From Lophium mytilinum (lineage: Eukaryota): a DNA stretch of 64,000 nucleotides. Where the stretch lies: positions 1,185,834 to 1,249,833 of the forward strand of contig MU004189.1 of the NCBI GenBank assembly GCA_010093605.1, written 5' to 3'. The notes under the pieces were generated by a model. It made no database searches and was not told the origin of the DNA. It saw only the letters and a program-made list of their open reading frames with translations. Numbering within the stretch: the stretch's first letter is position 1; every line of letters begins with the position of its first letter. This document shows, piece by piece, positions 9,235 through 37,559 of this stretch. Made by a program: the position numbers and the translations under genes.

Positions 9235-9235
9235 A

Positions 9236-10349: not shown

Positions 10350-12760
10350 TATTCTTTTAAGCTAGATTTCTTAGAAGAAGCTAGTATATTAATTAAAGCG
10401 TCTATATAAAATATACTATAAGCGCTTAAAAAAAAAGTAAGGCTTTAGTATTTACTAGAAGAGCTCTTATCTAGTACCTATCTCTAATATAGTATACTAA
10501 TTAAATTAGAAAGATTATTAAATGCTATAGCTATTACCTCTACTAAGGTTATTAAATAGTATTATAAGGCAATTAATAGTATAGAGTAAGTATAACTATT
10601 AGTCTAGTAAGCTACTACTAATAAAGAAGTTAGGCTCTATTAGAGATAAGCTAAGGCGGCTAGTAGCTTAGAACTACTCTATCTAGCGCTAGAAATCTCT
10701 AAATACCTACCCTAGGCTCTATAGAATTATCTTAGTAAAAGTTTTAACTTTAGTACCTCTAAGAAAACTCTTACTAACTATAACTAGATAAATATAAGGC
10801 TAGAAGCTCTCTATAGTATTAATACTACTCTATACTAAAGTTAGATACTTATCTAAGAGAAAGTTAATAACTATAGCTATATTAGTATTAAGATTTCTTA
10901 GTAAAGTAGGTAATTAACTATTTAGAGGGAAATATTTACTAAATTAGGTAGCGTATATAAATACTCTAGCTTTTCTACATTTAAGAAAAATATATATAAA
11001 AAGCTATTACTTTTTTAGAAGTAATCTAAAAGGGGTACCTAGCGCACTATTACGCCTAGGCTCCTACTTTAGCACCCCTAACCTCCTCTAGCCGGCCTGT
11101 ATAATATTATAGTACTATATACTCTAGTAATAGTAAGACGCTACTCTTAGTATACTATTTTAAGTATTATTTTTTAGCGTATTAGATTAATACTAGTAAC
11201 TTAAATTATATAGTGCTAGTAGTAGGGCTTATACTATCTTAAATTATCTTAAAGAAGTAGCTAAGGCACCTAAAATAATAATAAACGCCTATAGTATAAG
11301 ACCTAGAATCTATATACTTAGAAGCCTATCTATTCTACTATACTACCTAGGTATATATATTAGTTCTAAGCGGCTGCTATATTATAGATAGTAATATACT
11401 TAGTTATAGCTAAAATAACCGGGTTGCCTAGAGAGACAGGTAGCGGGTTAACTAAATAATACTTCTATTAGTAATTATTATAAGAGGAGTATTCTAATAT
11501 ATAATTTAGACTTTAGGTACACCGCTTTAGTTCTAGAGATAGAGGTGCTAATTATTACGTTGCTAGAATCTAAGAGCGGGTTTAAGAAAAGAGATAAAAG
11601 ATATTAGCCTAATTAGCGCGGGCCTATTAGACGGCCGATAAAGCCGTTAGATAGTAAAGTATAGTAGAGTAATTCTATAAGATTTAGTAGCTAGAGAATT
11701 AACTAAAATAATAGACTCTAGCTACTAACTATATAGTATACGTGTGTAGTTTATAGATACTAGTATATTATAGAACTAGTTATTATAACTAAAAATATAT
11801 TAAGTACTATATATTAAGTATAGGGTTTTATATAAGTAAACTAGGTATACTTACCTCTTACTTATATACTAGCTTCTATTAGCTTACGTAAATATACATG
11901 CCTACTTTATAATAATCCCTTAGGCTATAATTATAACGCTTCTTTATATCCGCCGGCCTTAGTTTAGTTGGATTAATACTATATAGAGTAATTTTTCTTA
12001 AGTAGAGGGGTAGACTATAGCTCTATAAGGTCTAGTGTATATAAGAATCTTTCTAGAATATTATAGAAGTAGCCTAAGCTACTAAACTACCTCTATACTA
12101 TAAAGGAAGATTCTAATTTCCTACTAATTTAGACTAGAATTACTTATATACCTTTATTTCTAGTCTATATACTTACTATTATAGTACTTAATATCTTATA
12201 TAGAAAGTAATTAAAATTATACTACGCTAGTACTATTAAGATTTCTAGACTATATAACTAATAGTCTATACTATTAGTATTATAGTTCTTATCTTTACTA
12301 TTACCTACTTAGACACTATATTAGAACTTATTATTACTACTACTTATAATCTTCCGCAACTATATAGAGAAGTAGCTAGGCCTATAGTATTCTAGCTTTA
12401 GATATTTTTAAGTTAAGTATTTACTATATTTAGTCTTTCTATACTAAGAGTAGCATAAATATATTAGTATTATCTTCTTTTTAGAATATATAGATTTATA
12501 GACAGGTTACTAGAAAAAGACACCTACTTAGAGAATAGTAACTAATTTATTAGTATAGATATAATATATCTAGAAACTAATTATATTAATATTTTATCTA
12601 ATTAAGAGTCTCTATATAGTCTAATAAGCTCTAATTAACCGGCGCCCGGTATATATACTAAATCCGCAAGCTAAGATACTAGTATAAAGATTTAGCGTTG
12701 CATAGAAATTAAGGCTAACGGTTTACATTATAAAAATAAGAAAAGAGTATAAGTAGAAAA
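10350..12760 (+). pseudogene. RIP-degraded long cargo ORF, unidentified
   Basis: One plus-strand frame stays protein-like over ~2.4 kb when TAA/TAG are read as Gln/Trp/Arg. No motif recognised, and limits are approximate. Confidence 0.35.
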
Positions 12761-12859
12761 GTATAGACTATAGGTATACTACCCTATATATTAACTTAAA
12801 TAGTATCTTATTAGTATAGTGTTAGTATTCTTATATAAATAGTCTTAGCGCTTAGCTAT

Positions 12860-14900
12860 ATATAATCTCTAACTCTTCTAAATAGTAAAAGGTCGCGTAG
12901 GCCTTAGTAATATAGTCCCTATTAGCTTATTTTATAGTTCTATCTAAGTCTATTTACACCCCTAGGTTAACGTATTCTATCTTTAAATATCTTACTAGTA
13001 TTAGAAAGCGTTAGCCCTATCTTTCTCTAGAATGCATAATTAAGGTAAATATACACTAAGTATACTATAGTAAGAGGTATTTAGAAAGGGCCTAATAAGT
13101 AACTCTTTAGGATATCTTCTATCTATTAACTATCTATTAGCTAATAGCGCTCTATATAAAATAAATAGAATCTTACCCTACTATTATAAAAGTTATCTTT
13201 CTTAAGTTCTATCTAATTATATTTCTTAAGAATTTCCGTAAGTAAATATGCGTCTTTATTTATCTAGACTAAAGCCTAGCACTTCCCTTTATTCTTATTT
13301 AGGCCCTTAGTTCCGGCTATATCTACTAGATATATTTGCTTACCTAAGAGTATTAGCTAATAGATTAGATCCGCTCGGGATAATTACTTATTAATAATAG
13401 TAGGCTAAGTATATCTATTCTCTAATAGACTAGCAATTAGTATATTAAGACTAGCCTAGCTAGTTATAAGATATTAACTACACTTTAAGTATCCGGGTAT
13501 AAGGTCTTTAACATTTCTCCTTTAATCTATTTCTAGCAGTTCTTTAATATTACTAGACTTAGTACTATTACTAATAGTAAAGAGTATATAACCTTTTCTA
13601 TTTACCCTTATAGTACTAAATATAACTTAAGTATTAGCGTCTAAGAATATGCTCTTAGCGACTTTTCGCATAATAGAGTTAGGCTAGGAGAATATTATAT
13701 GCAACTTTCCGGCACTACTATAGCTATCTAAAATAATATAAATATTCTTAAGTTTAGAGTAAGAACTAAAGTTATTAATAAGCCTTTAAAGTCCGCGCTA
13801 TATATTAATATTTATATTCTCTATATTAAAGATATAGTTAAACTTATATAACCTTACTTTGCTAGTACCGTTTAAATTATTAAGGTTAAGCTTTTGTCTT
13901 CTGTTATTAACTATAAGAGGAAATAATAGCTAGTTGTCTAACATCTTTAATATCTAAAGCTAAACCTAAGCTCTAAGCTATAATATCTAGAGAAATAGTA
14001 CCTTATTTTAATAAATATTAAGTATAGGTATTTTACTATCTATATTCTCTCCTCTTTAAAGTTGTCTTACTATTTACCGCTCTTAATAAATTTTTAAAAT
14101 ATACTCTCTAGGGAGTTTATTTACCTTCTCTTTAAGGCGTCTATACTCTTTACTAATTATAAGGTTTTACTTTACTATATTTAACTATCGGCGTTTAAGA
14201 TAGCTATAGTACTCCTTATTAAATTTCTTTTTAGTATTAGTAGAATTTTTATACTATGCACACATTTTTATTAAAAGATTACATACCTTATTTCTTTCTT
14301 TAAGGGCTCTAATTATCTCTACCTTAGTTTTAAGCGTATTACGTTCTTTAATTACTTTATAAAGATTTTACTTAAGTATCTTTATTCTAGATTTAGATAT
14401 CTCTACTTAAGTTTAAAGGCTATCTTAGTCTATAAATATATTATAAAAAGTTTATTTAAGTTATAATACTTAAATCTTAAGAAGCTCCCGGTTTTTACTT
14501 ACTTCTTTAATTATAAGCTTATTATAATACTTAGATATCTTATAAAGCTATTACTTAAGTATCTCTACTTAGATTTAAAGGCCCTCTTAGTCTATAGATA
14601 TTTTATAAAGCTATTACTTAAGTATTTCTACTCGGGTTTAAAGGCTATCTCGATCTATAGATATCTTATAAATAATTTACTTAAGTTGCGGCACTTAGTT
14701 TTTAAGAACCTTCTAGTCTTTAGTTACATTTTAAAGGGTATAAATAAGTATATCTATTTTAATTATAAGCTTATTACAATGCTTAGATACCTTATAAAGC
14801 TTTTACTTAAGTGCCTAGATAATTACTATATAAAGACTAGAATAGTAGACACGTTTAAGAAAATTAAAAAAAGAAGTATATACTCTATATATTCTATTTA
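12860..14900 (-). pseudogene. Kinesin-like gene K1: N-terminal coiled coil and C-terminal motor (kinesin-14-like architecture), RIP-inactivated; may extend 5' to ~16100
   Basis: The minus frame reads YKFNYIF (F.FD.VF), NIYIILDSYSSAGKLHIIF at 13690-13746 (de-RIP DGYSGAGKSHTMF, P-loop), PTIINK*LSRAD near 13375-13400 (T..N..SSR, switch I), LVDIAGTK at 13306-13329 (DLAGSE, switch II), then INKD. Motif order is as in kinesins. Confidence 0.85.
14340..14820 (-). repeat. 63-bp (21-aa, three-heptad) coding tandem repeats forming the K1 stalk
   Basis: The unit GATATCTTATAAAGCTATTACTTAAGTATCTCTACT...CTATA repeats with period 63 near 14533-14660, with degenerate copies on both sides. The minus frame gives IDRDSL*TRVEILK**LYKIS (de-RIP ~DRDSLQTRVE.LEQQLHE.S). 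Confidence 0.8.
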
Positions 14901-16799
14901 AAAAGCTAGTAAACTTAAAGTTAGTATACTATTCTACTAAGTTGTGTAAGTAGATAGTAAAAGTCTATTTTAGCTAACTAAAGATAGCTAGCTAAGAATT
15001 TATAGTAAGAAGGAGGTTATCTACCTAGTTTTTATAGAGAGGATTATAGGTACTCCTAGAAAGAAATTAATAATACTAAAAAGTATATAAAACCTAGTCT
15101 TAAAGATTTTATAGTACTTAATATACTCTAGTATAAAGAAGCTAAAGAAGTTAATAAAGAGTAGAACGGAAATAATAGTAGCTACTATAAATACTAAGCT
15201 AATTAAAATAATAACCTATAGATATAGATATAAGGCAATAGCTATTAGAAATAATATAGCGGCACTAAATAACCTAGCTAGACTAGGGCGTAAATAAGCT
15301 TTATATAGAGCGCGAATAAGAGTATATTATAAGAGAGGTAAAGATAGTATTAATAGTTAGATAAAGAACTCTTAGCAGTAATTTAGCGCTAATTATTAGG
15401 CGAGGGGCTACGGTAGTAATCTTATATTAATAGTACTATATAAGCGTTCTAAGGGCAATCTTATATTAATATTTAGATAACGGCGTATTCTTAAAAATTT
15501 ATAGAGTAGTATTTAACTATAGATAAAAATACGTATTTATAATAATAGCTATAGAGATACTAGTATCTAGCCTACTAGAGTATCTAAGTAGTTTCTAGAT
15601 AGAGAGAGTATATAATTTACTATATAACTCTTTCTAGCTAAATAACTTAAGCTTAAGAATAAAGACTACTTATAGTTTTAAGTAACTTCTATATTTTCTA
15701 GAATATTTTATAGAATATTAGCTACGCTAAGATAGTTTAATAGTTTAATTATATTAAAGGTAGAGATATATACTAAGGTATCTAATTTGCGTCTAGCTAA
15801 GTAGATATAGAATTCTTTAACTTTATTAAAGGAATTCTATAATAGATAAACTTAGATTTCTTAATCTAAAACCCTCTATCGCCGTAATTACTTACTTTAC
15901 CTAGCGGAGACGGCAGGCCCGCTGTGCTTTAAAGTGGCTAACATTAATAGCTCTAGCTTAGTAGGCGGGTGTTCTATTACTATAGCTCTACTTCTTTAAA
16001 TTCCTTAGCTAATTAGTATAGCTTATCTACTCTTAAAACTTCCTTAGCTAATAATACCCTCTACTATACCTTCTACTACCCCTAAATTTCTAATAAATTA
16101 AAGAGGCCTTATATATAGTAAGAATATAGGTAAGATTAAAGCTTTAGATAAAGCTCCGGGCCGTTCTAGCTAATTAGAAGATTAGACGGGAGGGTAGTAT
16201 ATAAATACTAGCGTCTAATTTAATATTAATTTAATTTATTTAATTAAATTAGGGCGCTCCTAATTAAGTATTTAGTTTAATCTATTTTAAGAGGCCTAAC
16301 TAATTAATTAGTTAGATCCGAGCCTAGAAAGTATTAACTATTTAGATACTAAAATAAAGCGTAGTATATAATAGCTAAATTTTAGATAAACTCTAAGTTA
16401 AGAGTCTCTTAACTTAACTTAGTAAAGAAATCCACTTATTAGTAAGTATAAAGGCAGCGATACTTTCTTAAAGTAATCTATAGAGGGAAGTTAGTATAGC
16501 TTCTTATATATAGCTTTAAACTACTATTTAGCTTAACTATAGTAAGCTAATATATTACTATATTTCTAGGTAATTAATTAAGTATACTAAGTCTAGTATC
16601 TAAATAAATATAAAGAAGACTATAGTTCTATATCGGCGTGCTTCTAAAAAAGCGTTAAAAACTATAATTTTAAGTATATATTAGCAACCTAAAAAGAGGT
16701 TATTACTCTATATTTTATAAATATTTATTCTAAAAAGATACACGTACTTACTAAATCTACCTTACTATTACTATTCTAACTTCTTTCTTCTAGAACGCT

Positions 16800-19335
16800 A
16801 GCTACTATAAAAGCTTACTACTTTATGCTATATATCTATTAAGCGCCGTCTACTTAACTAACTATAGCTGCTAAGAACGCATTTAGTTTATTACTACTTA
16901 TAGCGGTAACCTCTACTAGATTATTTATAGACTGCAATATATATATAATACAGTTAAACTTCTAACCTATATAATAGATCTACTTAATTCCCTAGAGGTA
17001 TATACTATATAAAAACTGCGGCTTAAGTATTATTATTTATTAAGCTTAATAAAGAGTATATCTAACGCCTAGAATACTAATAGTACTAATTAGAATTATT
17101 AGTATAAAGCTTTCCTTATATTTAATATTTCTAGAGGGATTACATACTATAGCACTATTAGCGAGGTAATATTATTCCTTCTAGAATCTACTAACTATAG
17201 CCTTTCTCTCTACGCTATTTAGCTAAGATCTAAATAATTAAATCTTCTATTATAGACACGTAATTCTTAGCTACTTATAAAGTAACAGCGCTGCTACTAG
17301 TAGAGATATTAAGATAATAAGCTATTAGATATAATCTTTAAGCTTATCTAGCACTTCTATAGAGAGGGTAGCAGCCTTTTAACTCTATTACTTAGTAGTA
17401 GATATAGTATTCTCTTTATCTATCTCTTTTATAATGCCTAATATCTTATTAGTTTTTAGGCTTAATAATATAATCTAGCTAGTAAATCTCTAAAAAGGGA
17501 AATTAGAGTCTAGTAGATACTAGCGTTTCTCTTAAATTACCTCTATAGTAAGACTATACTCTAAAAGACTATCTTATACTAGTTATCTAAGGGCTAGAAA
17601 GGTAAAGACTAGGCGCTATTAGTAGGCTAGGCTCGCAAATTTTCCCTAAGAATAGCTTAGTAGGTCCCCTTTTTTACCTTACTACTTTTATTACCTTAAA
17701 CTTTCTAAATAATCTATTTATACCTGCGCTATTATATAGCTAATATCTACTTAAACTTTCTAGAGATCTCTTAAGTCTAAATAGCAGTTTTAAATCTACT
17801 TATTTAGCTAAGAAAGCAGTATTAGGGGCTTCTATTTAGGTTTACTACTTATCTAGAAATTTAATGTATCTATAGTCTAATAAATTATAAGATAGCTAAG
17901 GACTTTAGCCTATTACTCTACTTAGACACTAACCTAATTCTTAAAGACCTAGTAAGCTTATTTTAATTCTAAGCTATTTCTATATTATATAAGAATCTAG
18001 TTAAATATTACCTAAATTTTATATAGAATATTACTTTTATATATATTCTATACTCTCTTTATCTTCTTAGGCACTAACCCTCTTTATGCCTTAAGATTCT
18101 ATTACTTTTTAAGAAATTTAAGAAACTTAACTATATTACAGGAACTCTAATTCTAAGGTGTTTCTAATAATACCTATATAATAGGCTGTATAGATAGGTT
18201 AATATAGGCTTCTCTTAGTATATACTAGAAGAGATTTAATATAGATAACTTCTCTTTATAGGCTTTATTAATTCTAATAATCCTAAACTAAATATAGATA
18301 CCCGCGATATCTTAAAGCTTATATATTCTAGATAGTAGCTTTCTTTAATATAACTTATCTAGGATATAATATTTTAATAAGAGAGGAGTTATTATAATAA
18401 TATTTCTTAACTGCCCCGGCTTTAGACTGTATATTCTAATATAGATACTAGATTACCCGTTAACCCTAGAATTATGTATACATAGTTAGAACCGGCTCTT
18501 CTTAATACTATTAATTAAACTGCTTATATTATAATAACTAATATAGAGATTTATACTACTAGGCCCGGCCTACTAATTATTAAAGATGTTGTTAAACTCT
18601 CTAATCTAATTACTCCTTAGTAACGGCGGAATAATAATTAGTAAATTCCCGAGTATTAGCTAAATCTTTATAGAAATGCTGTGCCGCTCGCATATACATT
18701 ATAAGGGATATTAAGTAGTATTACTGCTTAGGTATTAAAGGTGTAGGTCGGCACCTTTATAGAGATACTTTTTATTATTTATTAGGCTATTAGCTTATAG
18801 ACTTCTAGGTATAGACCGGGACCTTTTAACTTTAGTATAATATTCTTCTAACACTGTAACTACCTAGTATATAACTAGTATCTCTATTATCTTTCTAAGC
18901 CTCTATTTATCTCTATTAAATCCGCCTTATATAGTACTATACTAAAGTAACATCTATATAACTATAAGTACTTAGTAGGTATATAGCTATTATTTTAGCC
19001 CTATTATTAAAGACTTCTTAATACTCTTATCTAGAGGTAGCTTAAATAGCGCGTAAGCTTTTACTAAGAGGTCCTCTATTATATACTTAGTTATACTAGC
19101 TTATATAGTCTTCTCTTAGATTACCTTACTTATATTAACTTTCTTAGCCTCTATATATTTAATTTCCAGCTTACTATATTATATATCTATAGTTAGAATC
19201 TTTTACAGTCTAATATCCTTATATTAATTACTATATTAGTATAATACTAGGCTTTATTTACATTATAATAGTAAAGTTTATAGATCTAAGATTTAAGTAT
19301 ACTAGAAAGTATATTATAGTACTAAACTTAAAGTA
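16800..19335 (-). pseudogene. SNF2-family (SF2) helicase/ATPase, RIP-inactivated; the 5' part probably continues past the N-gap
   Basis: Minus strand, in order: LYTY*V..V.*ML (Q motif); GGFNRDK*RLRKI at 18888-18926 (GG...DE.GLGKT, motif I); LLIIIPPLLRSN*IREF (motif Ia); IIRINKAY ending at 18258 (DEAH); ILISTISILGVRYTL (motif V); LKPQF......*GIK*IYYIG* near 16960-17025 (Q..R.HR.GQ, motif VI). Confidence 0.85.
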
Positions 19336-19345
19336 NNNNNNNNNN
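19336..19345. other. Assembly gap (10 N); the true element length is therefore uncertain
   Basis: Run of N. Confidence 1.
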
Positions 19346-22300
19346 GTATATACTACCTGCATTTATATTCTTAAATATCTTTACCTATATTATTATCTTT
19401 ACCTATATCTCTATCTATATCTTTATCTATATCTTTATCTAGGTTTAGGTCTAGGTTTAAATCTAGATCTAAGTTCTAGTCTAGAAATAGGTGGATAAAT
19501 ATATAGTAAATTTACCGCCCTAGCTCTATTACTCTATAGTTATTAGCTCTTTACTAAAGGTAAAGACTACGCAGATATATAATAGCTTAATCGCGTAGAC
19601 TACCTTTAAATATAAACTAATTCTAAAGCCTATACTATACCTATTAGTTAGTTAATTATTTAAGTTTTCTATTTAAGTCTCTTACTAGTGTTTAGATAGT
19701 TGCTTTACTAAGAAAAAGAAACATCTATCGCTAAACTTAATAGCAAGATTAGCTAATCTTTTCCCTATTAAGAACTATTTCTAAATATTAGTTATAAGTT
19801 CTCTATAAGATACCCCTATTTCTATCTATATATTCTTATTAAACTTTAATTTAATATAGATTTAAATGTTAGCTATTAAGCGTTCCTAAATCTATAGAAA
19901 CTCGCGATATATAATATCCTATATTAATATTATTATAAAAATCTATTAAATATATAGGCCCTAGCTCCGCGCTATTATATCTCTTATAAATAGATAAGCC
20001 GGAAGGATAATATTATCCCTATTACTATTACTTGCTAATAAGAATATATTCTAGGTATTTAGAAAGATCTATTTATAAAAGTTAGCGGCGTTAGATAAGC
20101 TTCTTCTTTTGCGCTAGGTAAACTTATTAAAGACTATTAGCTAGAGTAGCTCTTTTAAACTAGTAAATAGTTTCTATACATCTATTTTATTGCTATTACT
20201 TAAACTAGGTCTAATAGATTTAAAGATATCTTAGTTATAGCGTTCTTAGGCTCTTTTTCTTAGTTATCTAACTATCCTACTTTAGGCTGCGCGTTTCCGG
20301 GTTATAGGTGCAAATATATTACTTATAGAGCGTAGTATCTTCTTATAGGTTAGCGTTATTTCATCTAGAGGGAACTAGAGAAATGTATTAAGCCTCTTAT
20401 TCTTAATTTAATCTAAAAGATCTAAAAGTTCTCTAAAGATAAACTTATTCTAAGATTTATTCTTAGATATTTAAAGATAGGGGTAGCAAGTAGAGAGTAT
20501 ATACTTTTTAGACTACTAATAGCTAAAGTTATACGCGACTACTATTATAGTAAGAAGAAGCAGAATCTTGCATATAAATATAGTTTAATCCTTATTACCC
20601 CTATTAACCTAATAGTATAATATCTTCTACTTTATATTAAAATAGGGACGCTTTTATATAAGCTTTATACTTTAACTAGATTAGTTTCTACTAGTTTTAT
20701 TTTATATTACCGCTAGAACGCTAAAAAGAAAAGGGAGGAAAATTAAAACCTAAGACACGCACTAAAGAATATATAAAAGAAAGTAAAATAGTTCTATATA
20801 ATTATAGTTAGGCCTAAATATATATAGTACTTATATAGAGTATAGTAGATTAGAAGCCTAGTAAGAATATATATATATATAGATCTTGCTTTTACCTAAG
20901 AAGAAATAGTACTACTACTAAAATAATAGCATCTTCTACTAAGAGTAAGATCTAGATTAGCACAAGCCCGCGCTTACCTCCCGAGACTAACTTAGTAACT
21001 CTTACTTTTTTCTTTAATAGCTAATAGAGACTATATCTTTTTACTCTTACCTTCTTAGAGACTCTAAGAATATATTTCTTTTTCTTCTATATAGAATTAC
21101 TCTTATTTATATTATTATAGTTATAGAGAGTTCCTAATTATACCTTAGACTTATTTTAGTTATTACTATTACTATTAAGGTCTAATATAGCTAGCCGTTG
21201 ACTCTAGAATAAGGGGTTAAAATAAGGTTAAATTAGCGTAATAGTTAGAATATTCTAAAAGCCCAACCTACTAGTAATAACTAGGCAACCTTAAAGATAT
21301 TTTCCCTTAAGGCTTTATATAGAAAGTAGTATTAATATAAAAAAACTACTAAAGCCGCGCTTAACTATCCCTACCTCTATTATTACGCTAATTATCTCTA
21401 TTAGGGTTAGTACTAACCTGCTCTATCCTTGCAACGCCAGTACGCTTCTTAATAATTAATCGTTAATTAAATAAGAAGGCTAGTTACTTACCGCGTTTAT
21501 ATACCTAATTATAGCTAAGTCCTTTAAATATATATATTATTATAGTAATAGTAGAGCTAATCTATCTATAAGAAGTTTATTAAGAAGGTAAAGGCTATTA
21601 TATAATTATACTTAGAGATAGGCGCGGATAATAGTTAGAAGCTATAATTCTAAACTATAGCGCTTAAATATAATAGAACTCCTTAAAAAGGTAAGTAAAA
21701 CTATTCTACTACTAGTATTAATATAAGAGATAAGAACCTACTTAAGAAGTTATACTATCTTTCTAGTTTATAAAAGTTCCCCTTATAAGAAGCGTTGCCG
21801 GGAAATAGAAGCCTATCTAAGTAGAGATCCCTAAACTCTATACCTAAATAATATTAGTTAGTAGATACTTTTTAAATCTAGGCGGCTATAGAGTTATTTA
21901 AAAAACTATCTAGATAGTTCTTTATAGGTATAAGTATCTATACTCCCTACTATTATATTTATATACCCTCTAGTTCTAGTAACTATATACCCCCTATCTT
22001 ATCTAGTCTTCTAACTAGCTAAAATAGCTTAAAGCTTTATCTAGAGCTCTATTCTTGCGTATATTTATACTATATATAGGCTGTATATAAGAAGTCTCTC
22101 TAATTTAAAGTACCTTCTTTCTAATTACTATAGTTATATCTACACTATTATATTACTATCTACTATACTTACGTGTCTCTAAGTATACTAAACTATTAAA
22201 ACTTTACCTTATAACGGCTCCTCTATATTAAGTAGCGCCCCCCTCTAGCGCCGCCTAATATATATATCTAGCAGCCGGCTATAGTTCTTATAGAGTAAAG

Positions 22301-23755
22301 AATAAAAATTAGTATATAATTACTTATATTATATATATATATACGGCCGCGTTTAGAGAAAGAATTTAGAGTTAGTAGGTAAGTTTAGTAAGTAAATTAG
22401 AGGCGCCGGCTAGAACTCTAAGCTAATTAGAAGATTAGATAAGAGGGGGGTTACTTACGCCCTTATCTATTATACTAAGGTATAAGAAAATTGCGCCTCT
22501 TCTAGGTATTAGTACTATAGCGTAAAACTAAATTACTACCTAAATAGTTTTTACTATAATAGAATATAGTAGGTGTATACTTCTCTTTAAAAAATAATAA
22601 GTATTATAAAATTACATTACTACCTAAGTATTATTTTATTACGGGAGGTTATAATTTAGATATATTTTAGTTTAAATTTTCTATAATCTAGAGTTATACT
22701 TCTACCTCTTTACTTATAAAGTTTTCTATATACTAGATACTATCTTCTCTAAAATTATATAAACGCTACCCTTAGCACGCTAGTAGATCCCCTTAACCTA
22801 TAATATATAGTAGGCCTAGAATTAGCTTTTCTAGGTAGTAATAGCTACTAACTAACCTATATATTAGCTTAATAGGGATAAACTAATATACTTAATTATA
22901 TAAGGTTAAAATAGCGTACTAAGAGTAATATTTATATAATCTTAGATAAGACTATAACTATAGAATTCTCCGCGGAGATATTATTATAATATAATAGTAA
23001 ACTTATTACTATATTAGTTTATATTTACTATTTAACCCTACCTAGCGCGAATCTACCTATAGAATAGAATATTTAGGGAAAGTCTAAAAAGAGCTATAAT
23101 TTAAGGGAGTACTACTTATAAACCCCCTTTTATCTATCTTTTAAGTAGCTAGAATAGCTTAAAGCTTCGCCCGGGGCTCTAGTCTTAGGTATATCTATAT
23201 ACTATACTATATATAATACTATATATAATACTATATATAATACTATATATAAGGTAAAACTATATAGCCTCTCTATTTTATTATATATTCTTTTTAATTT
23301 CTATAGCTATATATACGCTATTATATTACTACTAATATACCTATATACCTAAGAGTATACTAAAATAGTTAAAACCTTAGCTTACTACTACTTCTTTATA
23401 TTAAGCCTAGCTCTATTCTATTATAGTATATACTTCTATTACTATCTATACCTCTACTACTATCTATACCCTTATCTTTACCTAATATATATACCCCTTA
23501 AGTAAATATAAAGGTAAAGCTTCTTATAGCTAAGCCTCTCTATCTAGCTATATAATAATTAGAGAGAGTATTTAGAATTAGTTACTAACTTAAGTAAGTA
23601 AATTAGAGGCTTTAGAGCAGTAATCTAAGCTAATTAAAAGGTAGTAAAGAGTATTAGAGGGGGGGCATAGTATATAAAGTAAAAAGAGGGTATATAATTA
23701 TCCCCACCTATAGAAAGTAGATAAGGTTTCTTATTATTAATAAAATTTTAAGAAG

Positions 23756-24433
23756 AAGCTTACTTATTACCCCCTCTTTCTCTATATATTACCCCCCTAT
23801 TCTCTATATATTACCCCCCCTCCTTTTAACTAGCTCTAGGCCCGTATTAATATTATTCCTCTAATTAAACTTACTTATCTAACTTTATAGAAGGCTGCGT
23901 AAAATAGTAAGTATATATTATAAAATAGAAAGGCTGCAGTATACTAGCTATTAGAAGTCTATTTACTCTATCTATTATAGCTAGTCTAGAATTAGACTTC
24001 TTTAAACGGTTTAGGCGCTTTCTATTAGCTGGAATATACTCTCCTGCGCACTCGCATTAAACTATTACCTTGCGCACCTAAGGGGGGCTCTACTTATCTA
24101 TTTTTTTATTATATTTAATAATTATATAGCCCTTATATTTTACCTATATATTAATAGACTTTATACCTTTATTAATAAAGTTATAGCGGCCCTAGGGGGG
24201 CGGCTAGAGGGGCATAGTAGTAAAGTAATAATATAGAGAAAGTAGTATTAATATATTAAGAGAGAGAGTATATAGCTACTTATAAATTTAAATTAAGTAT
24301 AAGCGGGTAAGTAAGTAAGTTTAATTAGTAGAATAATATTAATACGGGCCCGGAGCTAGTTAAAAGGAGGGGGGGTAATATATAGAGTATAGGGGGGTAA
24401 TATATAGAGAAAGGGGGGGTAATAAGTAAGCTT
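23756..24433. repeat. Long inverted repeat (~122-bp arms, ~435-bp spacer), foldback/MITE-like
   Basis: 23756-23877 (AAGCTTACTTATTACCCCC...GGCCCGTATTAATATTATTC..CTAATTAAACTTACTTA) is the reverse complement of 24312-24433 with few mismatches. Each arm contains ~22-bp internal repeats TATTACCCCCC...CTCTATA. Confidence 0.85.
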
Positions 24434-24799
24434 TTCTAATTTTAATTTTATTATTACTAGGCTAGAAATTAAAGCTATTTCTATTTACTTATATATACTA
24501 GCTCTACTCTTATTCTATATAAACCTACTAATAGTATAAATTTAAGAATAATACTAATATAAGACTTGCCCCTAGTGCTTTCTCTACCTTAAAGCTAATA
24601 AAACATGCCGTATAGTATTTCCTCTAAGTTATAGTAATTATTTATAATAATAAGTGCAGGCTTATAATTCTTTTAAATTTAGTTCTCCTCTAGGCTTTTT
24701 TAAGCCTACTAGATATAGTTATACTTAGTAGTCTTCTAATCTCTTATTAGCTAGTATATCTTTATACGCATAAGATTAGCTACATTTTAATCTATCTTT

Positions 24800-26000
24800 C
24801 CCTTAATTACTTTAGCTCTAAGGCGCATCCCCTAAAAGTGCGCCTACGGGACTTAAGATTTAGCGCCGTATACTAGGGGCAAGTCCTTATTAAACTTAAA
24901 CCTATTAATAGTAATTAGATAAAGTCTAGCTTCTTATACGGAAGCTTAGTAACGCTGCGCAACTAAATACTAGGGCTTATTATCTACTTATTAATATAGC
25001 TAGATTATAATTCTACTACTAAAGTATAGATAGTATTTCTATCTTTATAAAGAAGACTTAACGCAGGCTATATTAAGTATATCTAGGCGCTTAAGATAGA
25101 TAATAAGCTTAAAATCTAGCTTTTAAGAATTGGCTGGGTTAAGAGATCTAATGTATTAATCTTAATTCTCGGATAGAATAAAAAGAGCATTATTAAGTGC
25201 TAGATCTCGGGGTCTAATAATATATAGAAAGAATAATTCTTCTAGTACCTTTAATACTATAAGCTTAATAACGCTATTAACACTATTAATAATTAGAATT
25301 TTTCCTTACTTAATATCCACGCTCTTATAGAAGTTAGCAACGCGTAATATTATTATTATCTTTAGTTTATTATTAAGAATTAGAAGCAATATACGCTATC
25401 TTATAGTCCTACTTAACTACTTATTTAGAGAATCCCTTTATCTACCTAGCTTTTAGACGCGGAAAAAACTAGCCCCTAGACTATTCTAGTTATCGCCTTC
25501 TTATTATAATAGAAGTAGAACATTTCTAAAGGCTTCTAATAAGATACTAAATATATAGAATAAAACTTTATAAACACGGGGGGCCTATATTTAGTAAGCC
25601 GGTTTACCTAGTTAAGAAGATTATTTTCTTTATTAATAAGCTCTAGAAAGTATATAATTACTCTATAGCATTAACTTAGAAATACTTAACTAAGAAAAGT
25701 AAGTATTATAGAAATAAGAAGGTTATAAAGGGAAAGCTATAACTATCTATATATTTAGATACTTTCTCTTCTAAAATAAAATTATAGATAATTCTCTCTT
25801 CTAAAGATAACTTATCTTCTATAAACTAGATTTCTATAATACTCTTATTGCGCAGCTCTTAAGAAATAGCGTTGCATTCCCCGACCTCGTCTAACTCGCC
25901 ACGCCTTAATCGTAATAGGGAAACTAAGGCCTAATCTAATAATTTTAATTAAAACGCGAGGCTTCTATTATTATTATCTAACTTACTATAACTTAATTAT
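24800..26000 (+). pseudogene. RIP-degraded cargo ORF, unidentified
   Basis: Protein-like plus-strand frame (e.g. LLRIGWVKRS, LIAQLLRNSVAFPDLV) with RIP-type stops. No motif recognised, and limits are approximate. Confidence 0.3.
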
Positions 26001-29000
26001 AATAAAGATTCTAGGGCTTACTCTAATAAGGAGAGTAAAGTCCGGTCTAATAAAGAGAAGAGGGATTAAACTAATTAAAAGGCAAGTCTTTACTCCTACT
26101 ATTAAGTAGATTTAGCTAATTAAGTATAAAATAACCGGGATAATATTAGAGAAAGTACTATAGAATCTTTACCTATTATACTAGAATAATAACTATATAA
26201 GATCTATATAAGTATATAGATTATATAAGACTATATATATATAATTTAGGTATATTAAGTAGAGAATATAGTTATACTAGATAAGAATTAAGAGTATAAA
26301 ATTATATTTTAAAAACTTTACTAAAGGCTAATTAAGCTAGGAAACAATGCGGCTATTAAGTAAGAAAGACTGCGCAAGTAAGCGGTAGAAGAAGAGTAGT
26401 TATAAATAGAGCTCTAAAGACTTTATTTTAAAAGGCAGCGGTGTTATAATAAATATTAATCTTTTCTAGGTAATAGAAATATTAAAGCGCTAAATTATAG
26501 GTAATATCTATATATTAGAATATAAGTAAAGTTTATAATTTTATAAAATAAATAAGATTTATAATTAGTTAGCTCTTATTAATAATTAGGTTTTCTAGCT
26601 CTAAACTATAGAATATTATATATATACACCTACTCTTAATAGCTAATAGCTTAACTATAGTATCTAAAGACTTAAACTTAGTTATCTAGGACTTGCCCTT
26701 AATTAGTTAGGACACCCTTAGTAATTATAATTCGCCCTTAATTACTTAGAACATTTTTAGTAATTAGAATTTACCCTAGATACCTATAATCCTTAAGACT
26801 TACCCTTAGTTACCTAAGACGGGGAGAGGGGGTTTCTAATACTATAACGGAACGTATTTAATAGCCTTAGCACGGCGGGGTATATTTTATATATAAAAGA
26901 TTTTCCTAAGTATTAGAGAACTAGTAAAGTTTAATATTTAATATTCTATATTTCTTTAAATATATAGAGATATTATTAATAAAGTATATATAAGGCCGCT
27001 TAGGTTTATATTAAAAGGTAGAGAGTATCTTTATATCTTAGAGAGTTTTACTAAGATAAGTATAGTTATCTAGCGGCGTAATATTAAAAAGAACTATAAG
27101 CTTTAAATAGATAGCCTATAGAAGCGGAAGATAACCTTAGTTAAATATTAGTAAACCTTAGAGACTTATAATTAATAGCGTGCTTAGGTAGAGAGAGAGT
27201 AGTAGTAGTAGTATCTATTATAGTAGATAGTTTTACTATAACCCTAGTTATTAAGGAGATTAAAGAAGTAATAGTTATATTAACGCGAGCTAGATAGGCT
27301 ATTAGAAATTGCGTAGAACTCTTTAGTATCTTTATCGGCAGGCTTATTAAAGGTAGGCGGGGTAGGCTCTAGTACTAAGCTCTAAATAAGCTACTATTTA
27401 GCGCAGAGGATACCTATTATAAGGTCTAGATCTTTAGCGGGTAGCGGCAGCGGTAGATAGCAAGTATAAACTAGAGAGGCGGAATCTTCTAGCTATTTAC
27501 TAAAGAGGGCGTTTAGTTTAGCATTAAATAGGGGTTAACTATAGAGTTTAGAAGCTTAAAGTTCCCTTCTAGGTATACTTTAGATATTTTACTATTAATT
27601 CCATTACCTTAATAATTACTATATAGCGTAGGTAGTATAATACTTACTTCTATATACTTGCACGCTATTAACGCACCTTTCTCTTATAAGATACTTCTAG
27701 TCGCGGGCTTATAGAAATATACTAGAATAACTAATAGAAAAGGTAAGTACTTTTTATATATGCGTCTTTACTTTATTAATAAAATTACTAAAGCTTCTCT
27801 TATAGAGTATCTAGAGTAGTAAGATTACCTTTAACCGGGCCTAAAAATATCTAATATTAATAATCTATTAAGTATACCCTTAAGTTAATCTAATAATATA
27901 GACTAACAGCCACTATAATTTAAAGGTGCTAAATAATTAGCTAAGCGTTTCCCTTAATCCTCTCCTCTTCTTAATAATTAATACTATACCGGCTTTAGTT
28001 AATACTAGAGAAATAATTATTATAGCTAGGCTTATAATATAGTTAATTCTTTAGGCTATATAGTAAGTGCTAGGCTAATTACCCGCTACACTAACTTACT
28101 AACGGTCGTAAACCGCACGTAAAGCTAGCTTAATAATATTTATAGAATTTGCATTATAGAGAGATACTTATAAATTATCTTATTAGGGGCTATAAGATTA
28201 AAGTAAAATATATATAGTCTATTACTAGTTAAAGAAGAGAAAGAATTAGAAGGTAAAATAATAGTAGGTTTAATATAGAAAAGAGATAGATATAGGCGTT
28301 AATAAGAAGGAAGGAGCTATTAGCTATTAAGTAAGATAGTATAAATACTAAGTAATATTAATAATAAGTAGGTAACCTATAGTATAAACTATAGCTCTAG
28401 AGCTAGTTATAGGCTTACTAGATAGTTTTAAAATAGGTATTAAGTATAGTTCTAGAGGTTAAACTAGTTATATACTAAGTTAGACTAGGTATCTAGAAAG
28501 AATATATAATATAAAGAATAATAGAAAGAGTTTTATAGTAAGGTATAGTAGTATAGGTATAGCTATAGGTATAAGCTATAATATTAGAGTAGGTTGTCTC
28601 TAGTAAGGCTATTAAGCTAAGAGAACGTTGCTCTTAGCATATATATAAACTAGAGAAGCGGCCTTATATTAGTATTAATTAAGCTAGTAAAAAAGGTTAT
28701 TAGGCGGAGGACTATTAAAAAGATAGTATATAGAGGTATCTAACTTATAGATAAAGAGCCTTTATATTAAGCTATATAGTATATTGCCGCTTATTTATAG
28801 GTTCTTACTTACTTTAAGTTTTAGTAGTTTAAGAGGTAGTAATACGTAAAGAAGTAGTAGAAGGCTAAGTATAAAGGTAAGGGTGCCTACCCGGCCTACC
28901 TAGTATAAACTACCTATATAGTGCGGAGCGGTAGTAGTATAGTAAGCTCTTAAGTAAGTAAGAGAGGCTTATAGTAATAGTAGCTATACTATAGAGCTAT

Positions 29001-29649
29001 TATAAGCTAAGCGGCTTAGATTTAGAGTTACTTAGCTATTACTTATATAGTGTTAGGCTTTATAGTAAGTTAAATTATACTTTTTCTATAGTATTTCTAA
29101 AAGATTAAATATAGTAATAGCGTACTAAGATAGATAGTAAGATTAATAGTAGTATAATAGGTAGTATAGTAGATAGCTATATTAAGGCTCTATTAAGCTA
29201 GAGTAAGTCTAGTAGTATTAAATAATACTACCTTAAAAACTTAATAGTGCGGCCTCCCTAAGCACGTGCTAAGTATTACTACTTTATAATTATTATAAGC
29301 CTCCTATAGCGCTTTATTAATGTAAGGGCTTACTAGAGGGCTAAACTTTACCCCTATAATATTTAATATAATATTTAAGGCGCTAAAAGGGCTAATAAGA
29401 GCCCTAGAGCTCTAAAACTTCTACTCTATTACTAGTTCTCTATATTCCTCGCTCTTAATTACTTAAGAAGATAGTTATTCTAATTCTTAATATTCTTAAT
29501 ATTCTAGCTAATATAATTTTATATAGAAGGTATAGTATACCTTACTCTTTCTCTCTTCTTCTTACTATATGCGCTAGTTATTCTTTATATATATAGTATA
29601 GACTTCTATAAATCTATAATACTATTTTATTACCCTTATACTACCTCTT

Positions 29650-31500
29650 ATATATACTATCTTCTAGTTTAGCCGGCTAGTCTTTACCCTAGTTTTCCTT
29701 ACTAGAGATACCCGCCTATCTTTAGTCGCCAACCTATCTTTTATAGATAGCCTTAACTAAAGTAGCTTCTTAGCACTTTTAAGTACTAGAAGTATCTATT
29801 TCTAAAAGTTATAGCTAGAGCTTATATATGCTAGGTAAACTATAGAAAGGTATAGGCTTTAGTTTAGTTATTATATAACGCGTCCCTTTAGTATATTTAT
29901 AGTCTAAAATTTTAAACTATTAGTTACTAAAGTTCTATATAGTATAGTAGTATAAAGGTCTTACCTTATTCTCTAATATATAATTATTACCCCTTAAATA
30001 CTATTTAATTACCGGGCGACTTATTCTAATCTACTTAGATACTTTCTTTTACTTTATACTTAGTTATTAGTTATATATCTACTTGTTTCTAGCTAGATTA
30101 ACTAACTAGATCTAGCTTTAACCGCTAATACTCTACCTATTACTATTAGAACTCTTAGTAGAAGTAGTATAACTACTATATATTTCTATTTTAGGGTCTC
30201 TACTTACATATCTATCTTAATAGGGAATAATAGTTATTCTATAGATTAGATTACTTTACAAGGATTTCTAATTATAATTAGTCTTACTTATCTTTTAGTA
30301 GTTAACTATTTATATAATTAGTTTTTATAGTTTTTCCGGGCTATTAGTAATATACTACGGGCATTTTAGTTCCCTTACTTCTAGTAATAGTTCGGCATCT
30401 AGCTTAATATTAGGACTTTCTAATACTTATTAAAAACCTTCTCTTCTACTTATAATAAAAGGGGTAATACTATTATAATCTACTTCTAGGGCTATATAGA
30501 TAACTTTTAGTAGCGGCAATTTCTTAAAGATAAGATCTAAAACTCTTTAAGTAATAGAGTTAAACTCTATAAATATTATATATAACTTTCTAGTACTACT
30601 ATAGCCCTGCGCTATAATATAGATATCTATTCTAAATAAATAGAATATATTTATAAGTAGGAAAATCTTGCTCTATATAGTAATATTTAAGTTATACTAG
30701 GTAAATATATAGTTAAATTAAAAGGAATTTAATTAACCTAATAGTTCTAAAACCTTAGTATCTATAGAACTAATCTATAAATTCTATATCTAGCGGTTAA
30801 TTTAGACATTAATAGAGTTCTTATCTTCTAATATTATAGATATTCTAACCTAGACTTAAAACTTATATTATAAGTTTTAGAATACTAAATTATATATAAG
30901 TCTCTATAGAATATACTAATATATATATACTTCTTTCTTTAGGTATTTAAGTAGGTCTATCTAGCTCTTACTATATATTTAAGATAGTCTTTTCTTTAGC
31001 TACTTAATAGTAGACTTAGTATTAGTAAGCTTATCCTTAGTATTAGTAAGATTATTCTTAGTATTAGCTAGATTATCCGCAGCATTAATTAGATTATCCG
31101 CGGCTTCTATAAGCTTTTTATTATTATCTACTAGCTTCTAATATAGCTCTTAGAATTCTTTAGAGTATACTTTAGTTATAATAGTCTTAGTAGTCTCTTT
31201 ATTCTCTACCCTAAATATTACCGCAGTTAATACTTTCTTAAGGACCGCGCTAGTACTTCTAAGCTCTACTAAGCCTTCGCGTTCTAGTGCAAGCGTATTA
31301 ATAGTGCCGCTCTATGTCTTCGCGTCTTTAAAGGGACTTTATAGTATTATTAAGATTTTCTTACCTATATTTAATATAGATTCTATTACTTTATAAGCCT
31401 TCTTAAAGAAATGCTAGGTAATACTAAGTTCTTCTTTTATATTAAGGAGCTGCTGCTACCCTATATTATGCGCAGTCTATAGAATTATAAGCCTAGTCTT
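29650..31500 (-). pseudogene. Kinesin-like gene K2: coiled coil and C-terminal motor, paralog of K1, RIP-inactivated; 5' end probably further right
   Basis: Minus frame: heptad repeats AADNLIN/AADNLAN near 31020-31110; F*FNYIF; AQGYSSTRKLYIIF at 30571-30612 (de-RIP AQGYSGTGKSYTMF); VIYIALEV; KTNYN*KSL*S (T..N..SSRS); LVNLARNK at 30082-30105 (LVDLAGNE). A GTAAGA intron donor lies at the equivalent position to one in K1. Confidence 0.85.
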
Positions 31501-37500: not shown

Positions 37501-37559
37501 GTGTGCTAGACTTATAACTTAAGAAGGTAAACTTATAGAGTAAGAAGTTAAACCTAGTA

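What the first reader, a model, noticed from the sequence alone, without database searches (positions are those of the whole stretch)
12860..31500. Two paralogous C-terminal-motor kinesins carried as cargo: candidate self-segregation or drive machinery
Seen: two separate minus-strand relics (K1 12860-14900, K2 29650-31500). Each has heptad-repeat coiled coil followed by F.FD.VF, P-loop (DGYSGAGKS / AQGYSGTGKS after de-RIP), SSR switch I and DxAGxE switch II, in the correct order and with an equivalent intron position. Both deviate from the canonical AYGQTGSGKT loop in the same way (GYSG), so they look like a distinct divergent clade. Established: coiled coil plus C-terminal motor is the kinesin-14 architecture (minus-end directed), and a kinesin-14 (KINDR) drives preferential transmission of the maize Ab10 haplotype. 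Inference: a selfish giant element encoding two motors may move its excised circle, its chromatin or its nucleus along microtubules (partitioning, nuclear transfer or meiotic drive). This function is a hypothesis only.
Basis: partly seen in the sequence, partly recalled or inferred. Interest (0 to 1): 0.88.

Follow-up and report, generated by a model that had tools for sequence, protein, structure and literature searches.

The report
Two dead kinesin-14-like genes, RIP-destroyed
Two mutation-riddled remains of an unusual fungal kinesin motor gene lie in a 43-kb stretch of defence-scrambled DNA; they belong to a small, unstudied motor family, but nothing shows they ride on, or help spread, a selfish element.

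Summary
K1 (about 12.86-14.9 kb) and K2 (about 29.65-31.5 kb), both on the minus strand, are real, diverged paralogous relics of a kinesin motor gene. They lie in a 43-kb RIP-saturated block (27% GC). Raw read-throughs fail Pfam. A K1+K2 profile, however, hits only kinesin motors in the PDB (21 of 21; best Kar3, E 1.8e-6). An HMM of eight intact members picks out only K1 (E 5e-17) and K2 (E 1e-11) among 426 six-frame tiles of the window. Undoing RIP-type transitions restores the clade residue at 50-61% of mismatched positions, against 4-7% for the reverse direction. The intact clade is closest to kinesin-14 (Ncd, Kar3) and has a complete C-terminal motor fold. Both window copies are dead, with 40 and 52 in-frame stops. 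The claimed shared intron is not confirmed: only K2 has an intron-like insert. The Starship-cargo and drive interpretation is untested. No captain was detectable with a method that also misses K1 and K2, no other strain was available, and no paper found links kinesins to Starships.

The parts
7200..50550 (.). RIP-saturated AT-rich block (about 43 kb, 26-29% GC). The left edge is graded over 7.1-7.5 kb; the right edge is sharp at about 50.55 kb.
   Evidence: TpA/ApT 1.75 and (CpA+TpG)/(ApC+GpT) 0.15 in the block, against 0.69-0.81 and 1.10-1.21 in the flanks.
12861..14901 (-). K1: RIP-killed kinesin-14-like pseudogene, readable in one frame, with 40 stops in 522 codons over 14427-12861.
14505..14812 (-). 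K1 upstream tandem repeats of period 63 and 126 nt (21 and 42 aa, heptad multiples): the putative coiled-coil stalk.
   Evidence: purine periodicity in this frame.
13942..13974 (-). K1 beta1-like motif RA*V*L*ILKM, compatible before RIP with WVWLRV (compare IWVWLRVRG in intact P0003).
   Evidence: for codons, for P0003; the match was made by eye.
13828..13842 (-). K1 FNYIF (pre-RIP FDxxF possible).
13699..13728 (-). K1 P-loop DSYSSAGKLH (pre-RIP DGYSGAGKSH possible).
13366..13383 (-). K1 switch I LSRADL (pre-RIP SSRADL possible).
13303..13329 (-). K1 switch II LVDIAGTKG (pre-RIP LVDIAGTEG possible).
29650..31500 (-). K2: RIP-killed paralogue of K1, with 52 stops in 554 codons over 31314-29652.
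31015..31099 (-). K2 upstream 21-nt (7-aa) tandem repeat, 4 copies: heptad-periodic stalk segment.
30832..30864 (-). K2 beta1-like motif KF*V*VRISII (pre-RIP WVWVRV possible).
   Evidence: the match was made by eye.
30703..30717 (-). K2 FNYIF.
30580..30609 (-). K2 P-loop QGYSSTRKLY (pre-RIP QGYSGTGKSY possible).
30247..30267 (-). K2 switch I KSL*SNL (pre-RIP ESSRS possible).
30106..30207 (-). K2 intron-like in-frame insert of 102 nt (GTAAGT...CTAG); absent from K1.
   Evidence: That it is an intron is inferred from the splice-like ends and from the spacing of switch I to switch II.
30082..30105 (-). K2 switch II LVNLARNK (pre-RIP LVDLAGSE possible).

Best explanation
K1 and K2 are two non-functional, RIP-destroyed pseudogenes. 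They come from a small, divergent, patchily distributed fungal kinesin family with the signature P-loop DGYSGTGKS(Y/H)T, and that family's closest solved relatives are kinesin-14 motors (Ncd, Kar3). Shown: they are kinesin relics, they belong to this clade, they were damaged by RIP-type transitions, and they cannot encode protein. Inferred: the ancestral proteins had an N-terminal heptad-repeat stalk and a compact C-terminal ATPase motor with intact Walker A, switch I and switch II. They therefore probably acted as dimeric, microtubule-binding, kinesin-14-like motors or cross-linkers. Also inferred: the two genes were already old paralogues (34% identical over 158 aligned codons) when the whole 43-kb segment was recognised as repeated DNA and inactivated by RIP. 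Today they do nothing. What the intact family does is unknown.
For: K1 alone against the PDB: 6 of 6 hits are Kar3, E 0.07-0.27, collinear over about 250 residues. The K1+K2 profile: 21 of 21 hits are kinesin motors, the top 7 Kar3, best E 1.8e-6. Exhaustive phmmer of K1 against 1.84 billion proteins gave 3 hits at E<=1e-3. Two of them (P0002 E 5.8e-5, P0003 E 9.6e-4) pass Pfam Kinesin at 59 and 96 bits (cut-off 29.3) and carry ADGYSGTGKSYT; the third is a spurious LRR/NB-ARC protein. Further members are P0004-7 and P0010 and P0011, named in Alternaria and Curvularia. The 8-member HMM against 426 tiles of the whole window gave K1 E 5.4e-17 and K2 E 1.4e-11, with only K1 or K2 tiles at E<=1. 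The 6-member HMM gave the next-best non-K tile at E 12. Undoing RIP restores a clade residue at 43 of 86 mismatches in K1 and 50 of 82 in K2. The anti-RIP control restores 6 and 3, and permuted columns give 29-30%. Stop counts are 40 of 522 and 52 of 554 codons. Purine periodicity is 0.60/0.54/0.47-0.49, as in intact flank genes, and the scan finds both relics in the right frame. The intact-clade profile against the PDB gave 152 hits at E<=0.001; the first 8 are Ncd and 12 of the first 13 are named Ncd or Kar3, best E 8e-26. The AF2 model of P0011 has the full kinesin core order and ends after alpha6. Foldseek top hits are all kinesin motors. In the Atlas, 30 of 30 feature hits are kinesin and TM is 0.79-0.82 over residues 430-727 of P0002.
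Against: The raw read-throughs give no Pfam Kinesin hit in any of 6 frames, and K2 alone gives 0 kinesins among 4 PDB hits. The part after switch II is unverified: a tail HMM from the three Pleosporaceae proteins finds neither relic, and only a low-confidence K1-Kar3 alignment covers it. Transversions between K1 and K2 show no clear codon-position bias: 59/51/59 over 244 codons and 52/34/52 over 158 (chi-square about 4.7 computed by hand, p about 0.1). Long divergence under purifying selection is therefore not shown. The kinesin-14 assignment rests on best hits with a modest margin (Ncd 94 bits against kinesin-13 KIF2C 83 bits), and no tree was built. The AF2 model is poor overall (mean pLDDT 54.5), with confidence only in the motor.
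Confidence: 0.9

Rival explanations
1. The 43-kb block is a degraded giant mobile element (Starship or similar), and the two kinesin genes were its cargo, without any necessary role in its spread.
For: The block is a sharply bounded, uniformly RIP-saturated 43-kb insertion-like body. It interrupts an array of Pfam-less paralogues present on both sides. Few internal repeats score above the control: only K1/K2, one inverted pair, one 16.1/22.0-kb pair and the K1 tandem array. RIP of the whole block therefore suggests other copies elsewhere in the genome (inference). The clade is patchy: the Bipolaris victoriae protein is alone in its 90% cluster, and the profile search found only Alternaria and Curvularia relatives at 54-60% identity. 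One subclade has three paralogues of about 83% identity on separate contigs.
Against: No captain or any other domain was detected at either end (0 hits in 12 frames), though the method is blind to K1 and K2 too. The middle of the block was not scanned with Pfam except around K1 and K2. No TSD, TIR or empty site could be examined. Neighbours of the intact Alternaria-type gene on L001 have no Pfam domains and left no relic in the window. The A. ventricosa member lies on a 2.15-Mb contig, not on the 90.4-kb scaffold of the described Starship Frontier. Kinesin is absent from the Starship cargo paper's text and from its one held supplementary file. AT-rich RIP isochores made of ordinary transposon debris are common in Pleosporales (recalled).
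Confidence: 0.25
2. The motors were self-segregation or drive machinery of a selfish element: they moved its DNA, chromatin or nucleus along microtubules.
For: There is only analogy. Two kinesin-14s on maize Ab10 pull knobs to spindle poles (PMC12941216, passages seen). Two paralogous motors sit together in one block, and the family is accessory-like and patchy.
Against: Both copies are dead. No element has been demonstrated. No knob-like satellite was tied to them; the only tandem arrays near them lie inside the genes. Neocentromere drive exploits asymmetric female meiosis, which ascomycetes lack (recalled). The Pleosporaceae members have hydrophobic N-terminal helices rather than a DNA- or chromatin-binding domain. 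No literature link was found.
Confidence: 0.04
3. K1 and K2 are RIP-killed duplicates of the host's ordinary kinesin-14 (Kar3/KlpA orthologue), not a separate clade.
For: Kar3 is the best PDB hit of K1 and of the K1+K2 profile.
Against: The clade HMM scores K1 at 56 bits, against 15 bits for Kar3. The P-loop codons do not allow GQTGSGKT but do allow GYSG(A/T)GKS. The spacing from switch I to switch II is short, as in the clade: counts made by eye give about 17 residues in K1, 20-21 in the clade and 26 in Kar3. K1 and K2 are only 34% identical to each other, so they are not recent duplicates.
Confidence: 0.03
4. The motifs are chance matches in AT-rich, low-complexity RIP DNA.
For: Pfam is blank. 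De-RIP gives many degrees of freedom: each codon allows 1-5 residues.
Against. In particular, the other 421 tiles of the same window act as an internal control, as do the anti-RIP and permutation controls.
Confidence: 0.01

Closest known systems
Unstudied 'GYSG' kinesin motor domain proteins of Pleosporaceae: XP_014555182.1 (Bipolaris victoriae FI3 COCVIDRAFT_17195), Alternaria infectoria J4E92_008620 (also A. viburni and A. ventricosa), Curvularia clavata yc1106_02754, plus unnamed metagenome proteins P0003-P0009
   Same: They share the P-loop DGYSG(T/A)GKS, switch I xSSRSxL, switch II DLAGxE, the FxFDxxF motif and short spacing between switch I and II. K1 scores 24-36 bits and K2 17-33 bits against single members P0002, P0010, P0011 and P0003.
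   Different: The window copies are dead. K1 and K2 have heptad-periodic repeats upstream, like the short coil of P0003. The three named proteins instead have an N-terminal region of about 300-430 residues with two long hydrophobic helices. The tail after switch II does not match detectably.
Kinesin-14 motors Kar3 (yeast) and Ncd (Drosophila)
   Same: They are the best solved-structure matches for the relics and for the intact clade. The motor is C-terminal and preceded by a stalk, and all ATPase motifs are present.
   Different: The P-loop is GYSGTGKS rather than GQTGSGKT (the canonical form is recalled). The beta6-beta7 hairpin is shorter. The microtubule-binding third is strongly divergent: Pfam alignments stop at profile position 245 of 327. 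No tree was built and no motility data exist.
KINDR and TRKIN, the kinesin-14s of the maize Ab10 drive haplotype
   Same: More than one kinesin-14-type gene sits on one non-essential genomic segment (PMC12941216, passages seen).
   Different: No satellite partner, no drive phenotype and no asymmetric meiosis. Both copies here are pseudogenes. No sequence comparison with KINDR was made.
Starship giant transposons (Gluck-Thaler et al. 2022, PMC9156397)
   Same: The size range fits, the body looks like an insertion, and RIP susceptibility is known for accessory regions (passages seen).
   Different: No DUF3435 captain, TSD, insertion polymorphism or typical cargo (DUF3723, FRE, PLP, NLR) was shown here.

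Membership tests
Kinesin superfamily (PF00225) | Significant similarity to the motor-domain profile | tested here: met
   Direct Pfam scan of the raw read-through: not met (0 of 6 frames). Met indirectly: the K1+K2 profile hit 21 of 21 kinesins in the PDB, E 1.8e-6. The clade HMM gave E 5.4e-17 and 1.4e-11, and the clade members used pass Pfam Kinesin at 59-96 bits against a cut-off of 29.3.
Kinesin superfamily (PF00225) | Walker A, switch I (SSRSH) and switch II (DxxGxE) in order and at kinesin spacing | tested here: met
   All three motifs are reachable by RIP reversal alone. The spacing matches the clade rather than canonical kinesins.
Kinesin superfamily (PF00225) | Complete motor fold including alpha4-L12-alpha5 (the microtubule face) | tested here: inconclusive
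   Present in intact clade members (AF2; Atlas TM 0.79-0.82). Not verifiable in K1 or K2.
Kinesin-14 | Motor at the C-terminus, stalk N-terminal | tested here: met
   Intact P0011 ends after alpha6. In K1 and K2 the heptad-period repeats lie upstream of the motor, and the coding-like signal ends after it.
Kinesin-14 | Closest sequence relatives are kinesin-14s; phylogenetic placement | tested here: inconclusive
   Best hits are Ncd, Kar3 and KIFC3, but the margin over kinesin-13 is about 11 bits. No tree could be built because no canonical kinesin sequences were available in the script box.
Kinesin-14 | Conserved neck and neck-motor junction; minus-end motility | not testable with these tools
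   Only a beta1-like WVWLRV motif was seen by eye. Motility needs an assay.
Starship giant transposon | DUF3435 tyrosine-recombinase captain at the 5' end | tested here: inconclusive
   Pfam gave 0 hits in 12 frames over 6.9-12.9 and 44.7-50.7 kb. The same method misses the proven K1 and K2.
Starship giant transposon | Target-site duplication and insertion polymorphism (empty site) | not testable with these tools
   No genome is held. Only 2 runs from the probable source sample hold the DNA.
Starship giant transposon | Recurring cargo: DUF3723, FRE, PLP, NLR | not tested
   Only the block ends and the K1 and K2 regions were scanned. Five periodicity-flagged candidates gave nothing credible against the PDB.
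RIP-affected region | TpA/ApT above 0.89 and (CpA+TpG)/(ApC+GpT) below 1.03 (thresholds recalled) | tested here: met
   1.75 and 0.15 in the block; normal in the flanks.

The most novel reading that the evidence does not exclude
The GYSG kinesin-14-like family is an accessory motor carried by giant mobile or otherwise selfish DNA in Pleosporales. It would be kept in more than one paralogue per element because it biases the partitioning of the element's chromosome or nucleus, for example in heterokaryons or at ascus nuclear divisions. On this reading the window shows an element that the host has silenced by RIP.
Probability: 0.06. Interest if true: 0.85.

Novelty: new variant of a known kind. 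Interest (0 to 1): 0.42.

Why it matters
It shows that heavily RIP-degraded genes can still be identified rigorously. Three methods worked: pooling paralogous relics into one profile, testing the direction of the mutations, and using the purine/pyrimidine periodicity that RIP cannot erase. It also brings to light a small, unstudied fungal kinesin family with an altered P-loop, a compact C-terminal motor and a patchy distribution across Pleosporaceae. That patchiness makes it a candidate accessory gene. If it turns out to be linked to giant mobile elements, it would be the first cytoskeletal motor among their cargo. As things stand, the two copies here are dead, and the selfish-element link is only a hypothesis.

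Tried and rejected
(1) Pfam on the raw read-through of K1 and K2 gave no kinesin hit; the only hit was a spurious Sec20 at E 1.4. (2) K2 alone against the PDB gave nothing relevant. (3) The word-indexed protein search with K1 scored none of 7999 candidates at E<=10. (4) No whole genome is held, and there are no earlier notes for this genome, for the P0002 sequence or for the search words. (5) The codon-position test of K1/K2 transversions was inconclusive; the first nucleotide alignment was over-gapped, with 68 blocks. (6) Pfam on both block ends found nothing; the middle of the block was not scanned because the method is demonstrably blind here. (7) The metagenome scan matched 105 stretches, of which 3 were confirmed. 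Only L001 is a true clade member and it is 5.5 kb long. L002 lies in a 3184-aa ORF and L003 is a weak match; neither was followed. (8) The ORFs neighbouring the L001 gene have no Pfam domain and left no relic in the window, all E>=0.96. (9) Sequencing-run search: only 2 runs of one study, probably the source sample, so no strain comparison was possible and read laying was not used. (10) PDB searches of five periodicity-flagged candidate relics gave only a low-complexity LeuRS hit on a KVNSN repeat and hits at E>0.4. (11) A tail HMM from the three Pleosporaceae proteins found neither relic. (12) Literature: 'Starship, kinesin, cargo' found 1 paper and 'Starship, kinesin' found 4, none linking the two; 'kinesin, repeat-induced point mutation, pseudogene' found 2, both irrelevant by title and abstract. 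(13) No de-RIP-reconstructed sequence was sent to Pfam. The test was made per codon inside a script instead.

Full report
SETTING. The window has GC-normal flanks (47-58% GC) around an AT-rich block of 26-29% GC from about 7.2 to 50.55 kb. In the block, TpA/ApT is 1.75 and (CpA+TpG)/(ApC+GpT) is 0.15. In the flanks these indices are 0.69-0.81 and 1.10-1.21. The right edge is sharp and the left edge is graded. This is the signature of repeat-induced point mutation (RIP), so the host is a filamentous ascomycete. The flanks carry ordinary genes: oxoprolinase, a GRDP-like protein and a CFEM protein. No whole genome is held for this window, and earlier notes of the scan held nothing.

OBSERVATION.
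- K1: FNYIF, then DSYSSAGKLH, then LSRADL, then LVDIAGTKG.
- K2: FNYIF, then QGYSSTRKLY, then KSL*SNL, then LVNLARNK.
Every deviation from a kinesin-type motif at these sites is reachable by C-to-T or G-to-A change alone. K1 and K2 are paralogues. With transitions collapsed (A/G to A, C/T to T), 13305-14434 aligns with 30183-31316 over 1185 columns at 75% identity and 300 bits. The best hit against the reversed sequence scored 144 bits. Only the genes themselves align; their surroundings do not.

IS IT A KINESIN? The raw read-throughs, with X at each stop, fail Pfam in all 6 frames tried. K2 alone finds no kinesin in the PDB (0 of 4 hits). K1 alone finds only Kar3 (6 of 6 hits), collinear over about 250 residues, but at E 0.07-0.27. 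RIP damage is independent in the two copies, so I aligned them (A1) and searched with the two-row profile. All 21 PDB sequences at E<=10 were kinesin motor domains. The top seven were Kar3, with best E 1.8e-6 at 30 bits.

INTACT RELATIVES. The single exhaustive phmmer job (K1 motor against 1,835,955,588 representatives) returned three proteins at E<=1e-3. P0001 is a 2702-aa LRR/NB-ARC protein hit on low-complexity sequence and is spurious. P0002 (727 aa, E 5.8e-5) and P0003 (439 aa, E 9.6e-4) pass Pfam's Kinesin cut-off at 59 and 96 bits. Both carry ADGYSGTGKSYT, xSSRSxL and DLAGxE.

P0002 is XP_014555182.1 of Bipolaris victoriae FI3. Further searches added P0004-P0007, unnamed ENA proteins all with FFDGYSG(T/S)GKSYTMF. 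They also added P0010 (Alternaria infectoria, identical in A. viburni and at least 90% identical in A. ventricosa) and P0011 (Curvularia clavata). The B. victoriae protein is alone in its 90% cluster. The profile search found only these two other genera, at 54-60% identity. This points to a patchy, accessory-like distribution. The caveat is that the word index scored only about 8000 candidates.

SPECIFICITY CONTROL. I built an HMM of the intact members in the script box and searched 426 tiles covering all six frames of the whole window, with X at stops. With six members, only K1 tiles (E 5.7e-9 and 1.5e-8) and K2 tiles (E 3.9e-5 and 3.9e-3) scored, and the next tile was at E 12. With eight members, K1 reached E 5.4e-17 (56 bits) and K2 E 1.4e-11 (38.5 bits). 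Only 5 of 426 tiles reached E<=1, and all of them overlap K1 or K2. The alignments run from the FxFD motif to switch II in K1, and to just past switch I in K2.

IS RIP THE KILLER? I examined HMM match columns occupied by at least 6 of the 8 intact members.
- K1: it already shows a clade residue at 69 of 155 columns. Of the 86 mismatches, 43 are restored by undoing RIP-type changes, against 6 by the opposite direction. Permuted columns give 29%.
- K2: 60 of 142 columns already match. Of the 82 mismatches, 50 are restored by undoing RIP, against 3 by the opposite direction. Permuted columns give 30%.
K1 has 40 stops in 522 codons and K2 has 52 in 554. Both are dead.

A HOMOLOGY-FREE CHECK. RIP makes only transitions, so the purine/pyrimidine sequence is untouched. 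Purine content at codon positions 1, 2 and 3 is 0.60/0.54/0.47 in K1 and 0.60/0.54/0.49 in K2. Intact flank genes show 0.58-0.65/0.50-0.54/0.43-0.51. A sliding likelihood scan recovers 12751-14400 and 29701-31350 on the minus strand in exactly the frames used above, above the 99th percentile of shuffles.

K2's switch I is at 30267-30247. Between it and switch II lies a 102-nt in-frame insert that begins GTAAGT and ends CTAG (30207-30106). Removing it gives the same spacing from switch I to switch II as in K1, which is continuous there. An 'equivalent intron position' is therefore not confirmed. The stalk claim rests on tandem repeats with heptad-multiple periods: 63 and 126 nt in K1, and 21 nt x4 in K2.

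Transversions between K1 and K2 show no convincing third-position excess: 59/51/59 over 244 codons and 52/34/52 over 158. At 54 of 158 identical residues they are old paralogues, not the recent duplicates that would have triggered RIP on each other. The region after switch II is not verified: a tail HMM from the three Pleosporaceae proteins finds neither relic.

WHAT IS THE CLADE? The eight-member profile hits 152 PDB sequences at E<=0.001. The first eight are Ncd, and 12 of the first 13 are named Ncd or Kar3. The ninth, 1sdm, I recall to be KCBP, also a kinesin-14. The best hit is E 8e-26. Kinesin-13 KIF2C follows 11 bits behind.

AF2 on P0011 with the clade alignment is poor overall (mean pLDDT 54.5), but block means are mostly 78-90 over residues ~360-560. 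There it gives alpha1, beta3, P-loop, alpha2, beta4/5, alpha3, switch I, beta6/7, switch II, alpha4, alpha5, beta8 and alpha6, and the protein ends after alpha6. The listed Foldseek hits are all kinesin motors, and 354 of the 500 best matches counted have E<=0.001. In the ESM Atlas, 30 of 30 feature hits are kinesin clusters, and TM is 0.79-0.82 over residues 430-727 of P0002. The family therefore keeps a whole, compact, C-terminal motor with all ATPase motifs. That is kinesin-14-like in layout, but membership is not proven because no tree was built.

The named Pleosporaceae proteins have two long hydrophobic N-terminal helices instead of a coil. P0003 has a short coil, as K1 and K2 seem to. 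K1 and K2 are about equally close to both groups and far from the P0004-7 subclade.

CARGO OF A SELFISH ELEMENT? This part could not be settled.
- Pfam found nothing in 12 frames over the two ends of the block. The same method misses K1 and K2, so the blank means little. The middle of the block was not scanned.
- Five other coding-like stretches flagged by the periodicity scan gave nothing credible against the PDB.
- Only two runs, from the probable source sample, hold this DNA, so no empty site could be sought.
- The only genomic context reachable for an intact member is a 5.5-kb metagenome contig encoding the P0010 protein. Its four neighbouring ORFs have no Pfam domain and left no relic in the window.
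- The A. ventricosa member lies on a 2.15-Mb contig, so it is not on the 90.4-kb scaffold of the Starship 'Frontier' described in that species (PMC11857905, passages seen). Its one held supplementary file mentions neither kinesin nor the gene.
- The founding Starship paper (PMC9156397) does not mention kinesin in its text or in its one held supplementary file.
- Searches for 'Starship, kinesin, cargo' (1 paper) and 'Starship, kinesin' (4 papers) found no link. The one apparent hit concerns an unrelated Botrytis GWAS gene.
- In favour of an insertion: the block has a sharp edge, and it interrupts a family of Pfam-less paralogues found on both sides. It also has few internal repeats although it is uniformly RIP-mutated, which suggests that other copies existed elsewhere.

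DRIVE? The maize precedent is real: two kinesins on Ab10 act on knob repeats (PMC12941216, passages seen). But it relies on asymmetric female meiosis, which ascomycetes lack (recalled). The copies here are dead, and no partner satellite was seen.

VERDICT. K1 and K2 are two RIP-killed paralogues of a small, unstudied kinesin-14-like 'GYSG' family. The selfish-cargo and drive reading remains an untested hypothesis, with low odds on present evidence.

Noticed in passing
window 3137-4324, 5898-6167, 50510-51823, 52460-53143 (all + strand): A paralogous gene family with no Pfam domain lies on both sides of the RIP block (BLASTP E 2e-20 between the first and third; tblastn finds four pieces). The block therefore interrupts a small array, and its first and last kilobase show intermediate RIP indices.
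   Followed up: partly
window 24601-25500, 32851-34200, 37951-39000, 42901-45600, 48451-49500, 6901-7800: Purine/pyrimidine three-base periodicity, which RIP cannot erase, flags further coding-like stretches in the block. Five were searched against the PDB as read-throughs and none could be identified.
   Followed up: partly
window about 43.6 kb (+ frame of 42600-44700): A 15-nt simple repeat, read as (KVNSN)n, produces a spurious leucyl-tRNA synthetase hit at E 5.6e-4. It is a caution for searches in this block.
   Followed up: no
window 23730-23881 and 24308-24461: An inverted repeat of about 150 nt, 95% identical once transitions are collapsed. It is the strongest internal repeat of the block after K1/K2. 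Its nature is unknown.
   Followed up: no
P0011 residues about 58-126 (also in P0002 and P0010): The named Pleosporaceae members of the kinesin clade have two long hydrophobic N-terminal helices (AF2, pLDDT 64-70) where K1, K2 and P0003 have a coil-like region. This may be a membrane anchor.
   Followed up: no
P0004, P0005, P0006: Three members of one subclade are 83-84% identical and lie on separate 33-45 kb contigs of unnamed assemblies. The family may be multi-copy in some genome. Their contexts could not be fetched.
   Followed up: no
L002 2633-12187: The weak metagenome match lies inside a single 3184-aa ORF on a 101-kb contig. It is probably unrelated to the clade.
   Followed up: no
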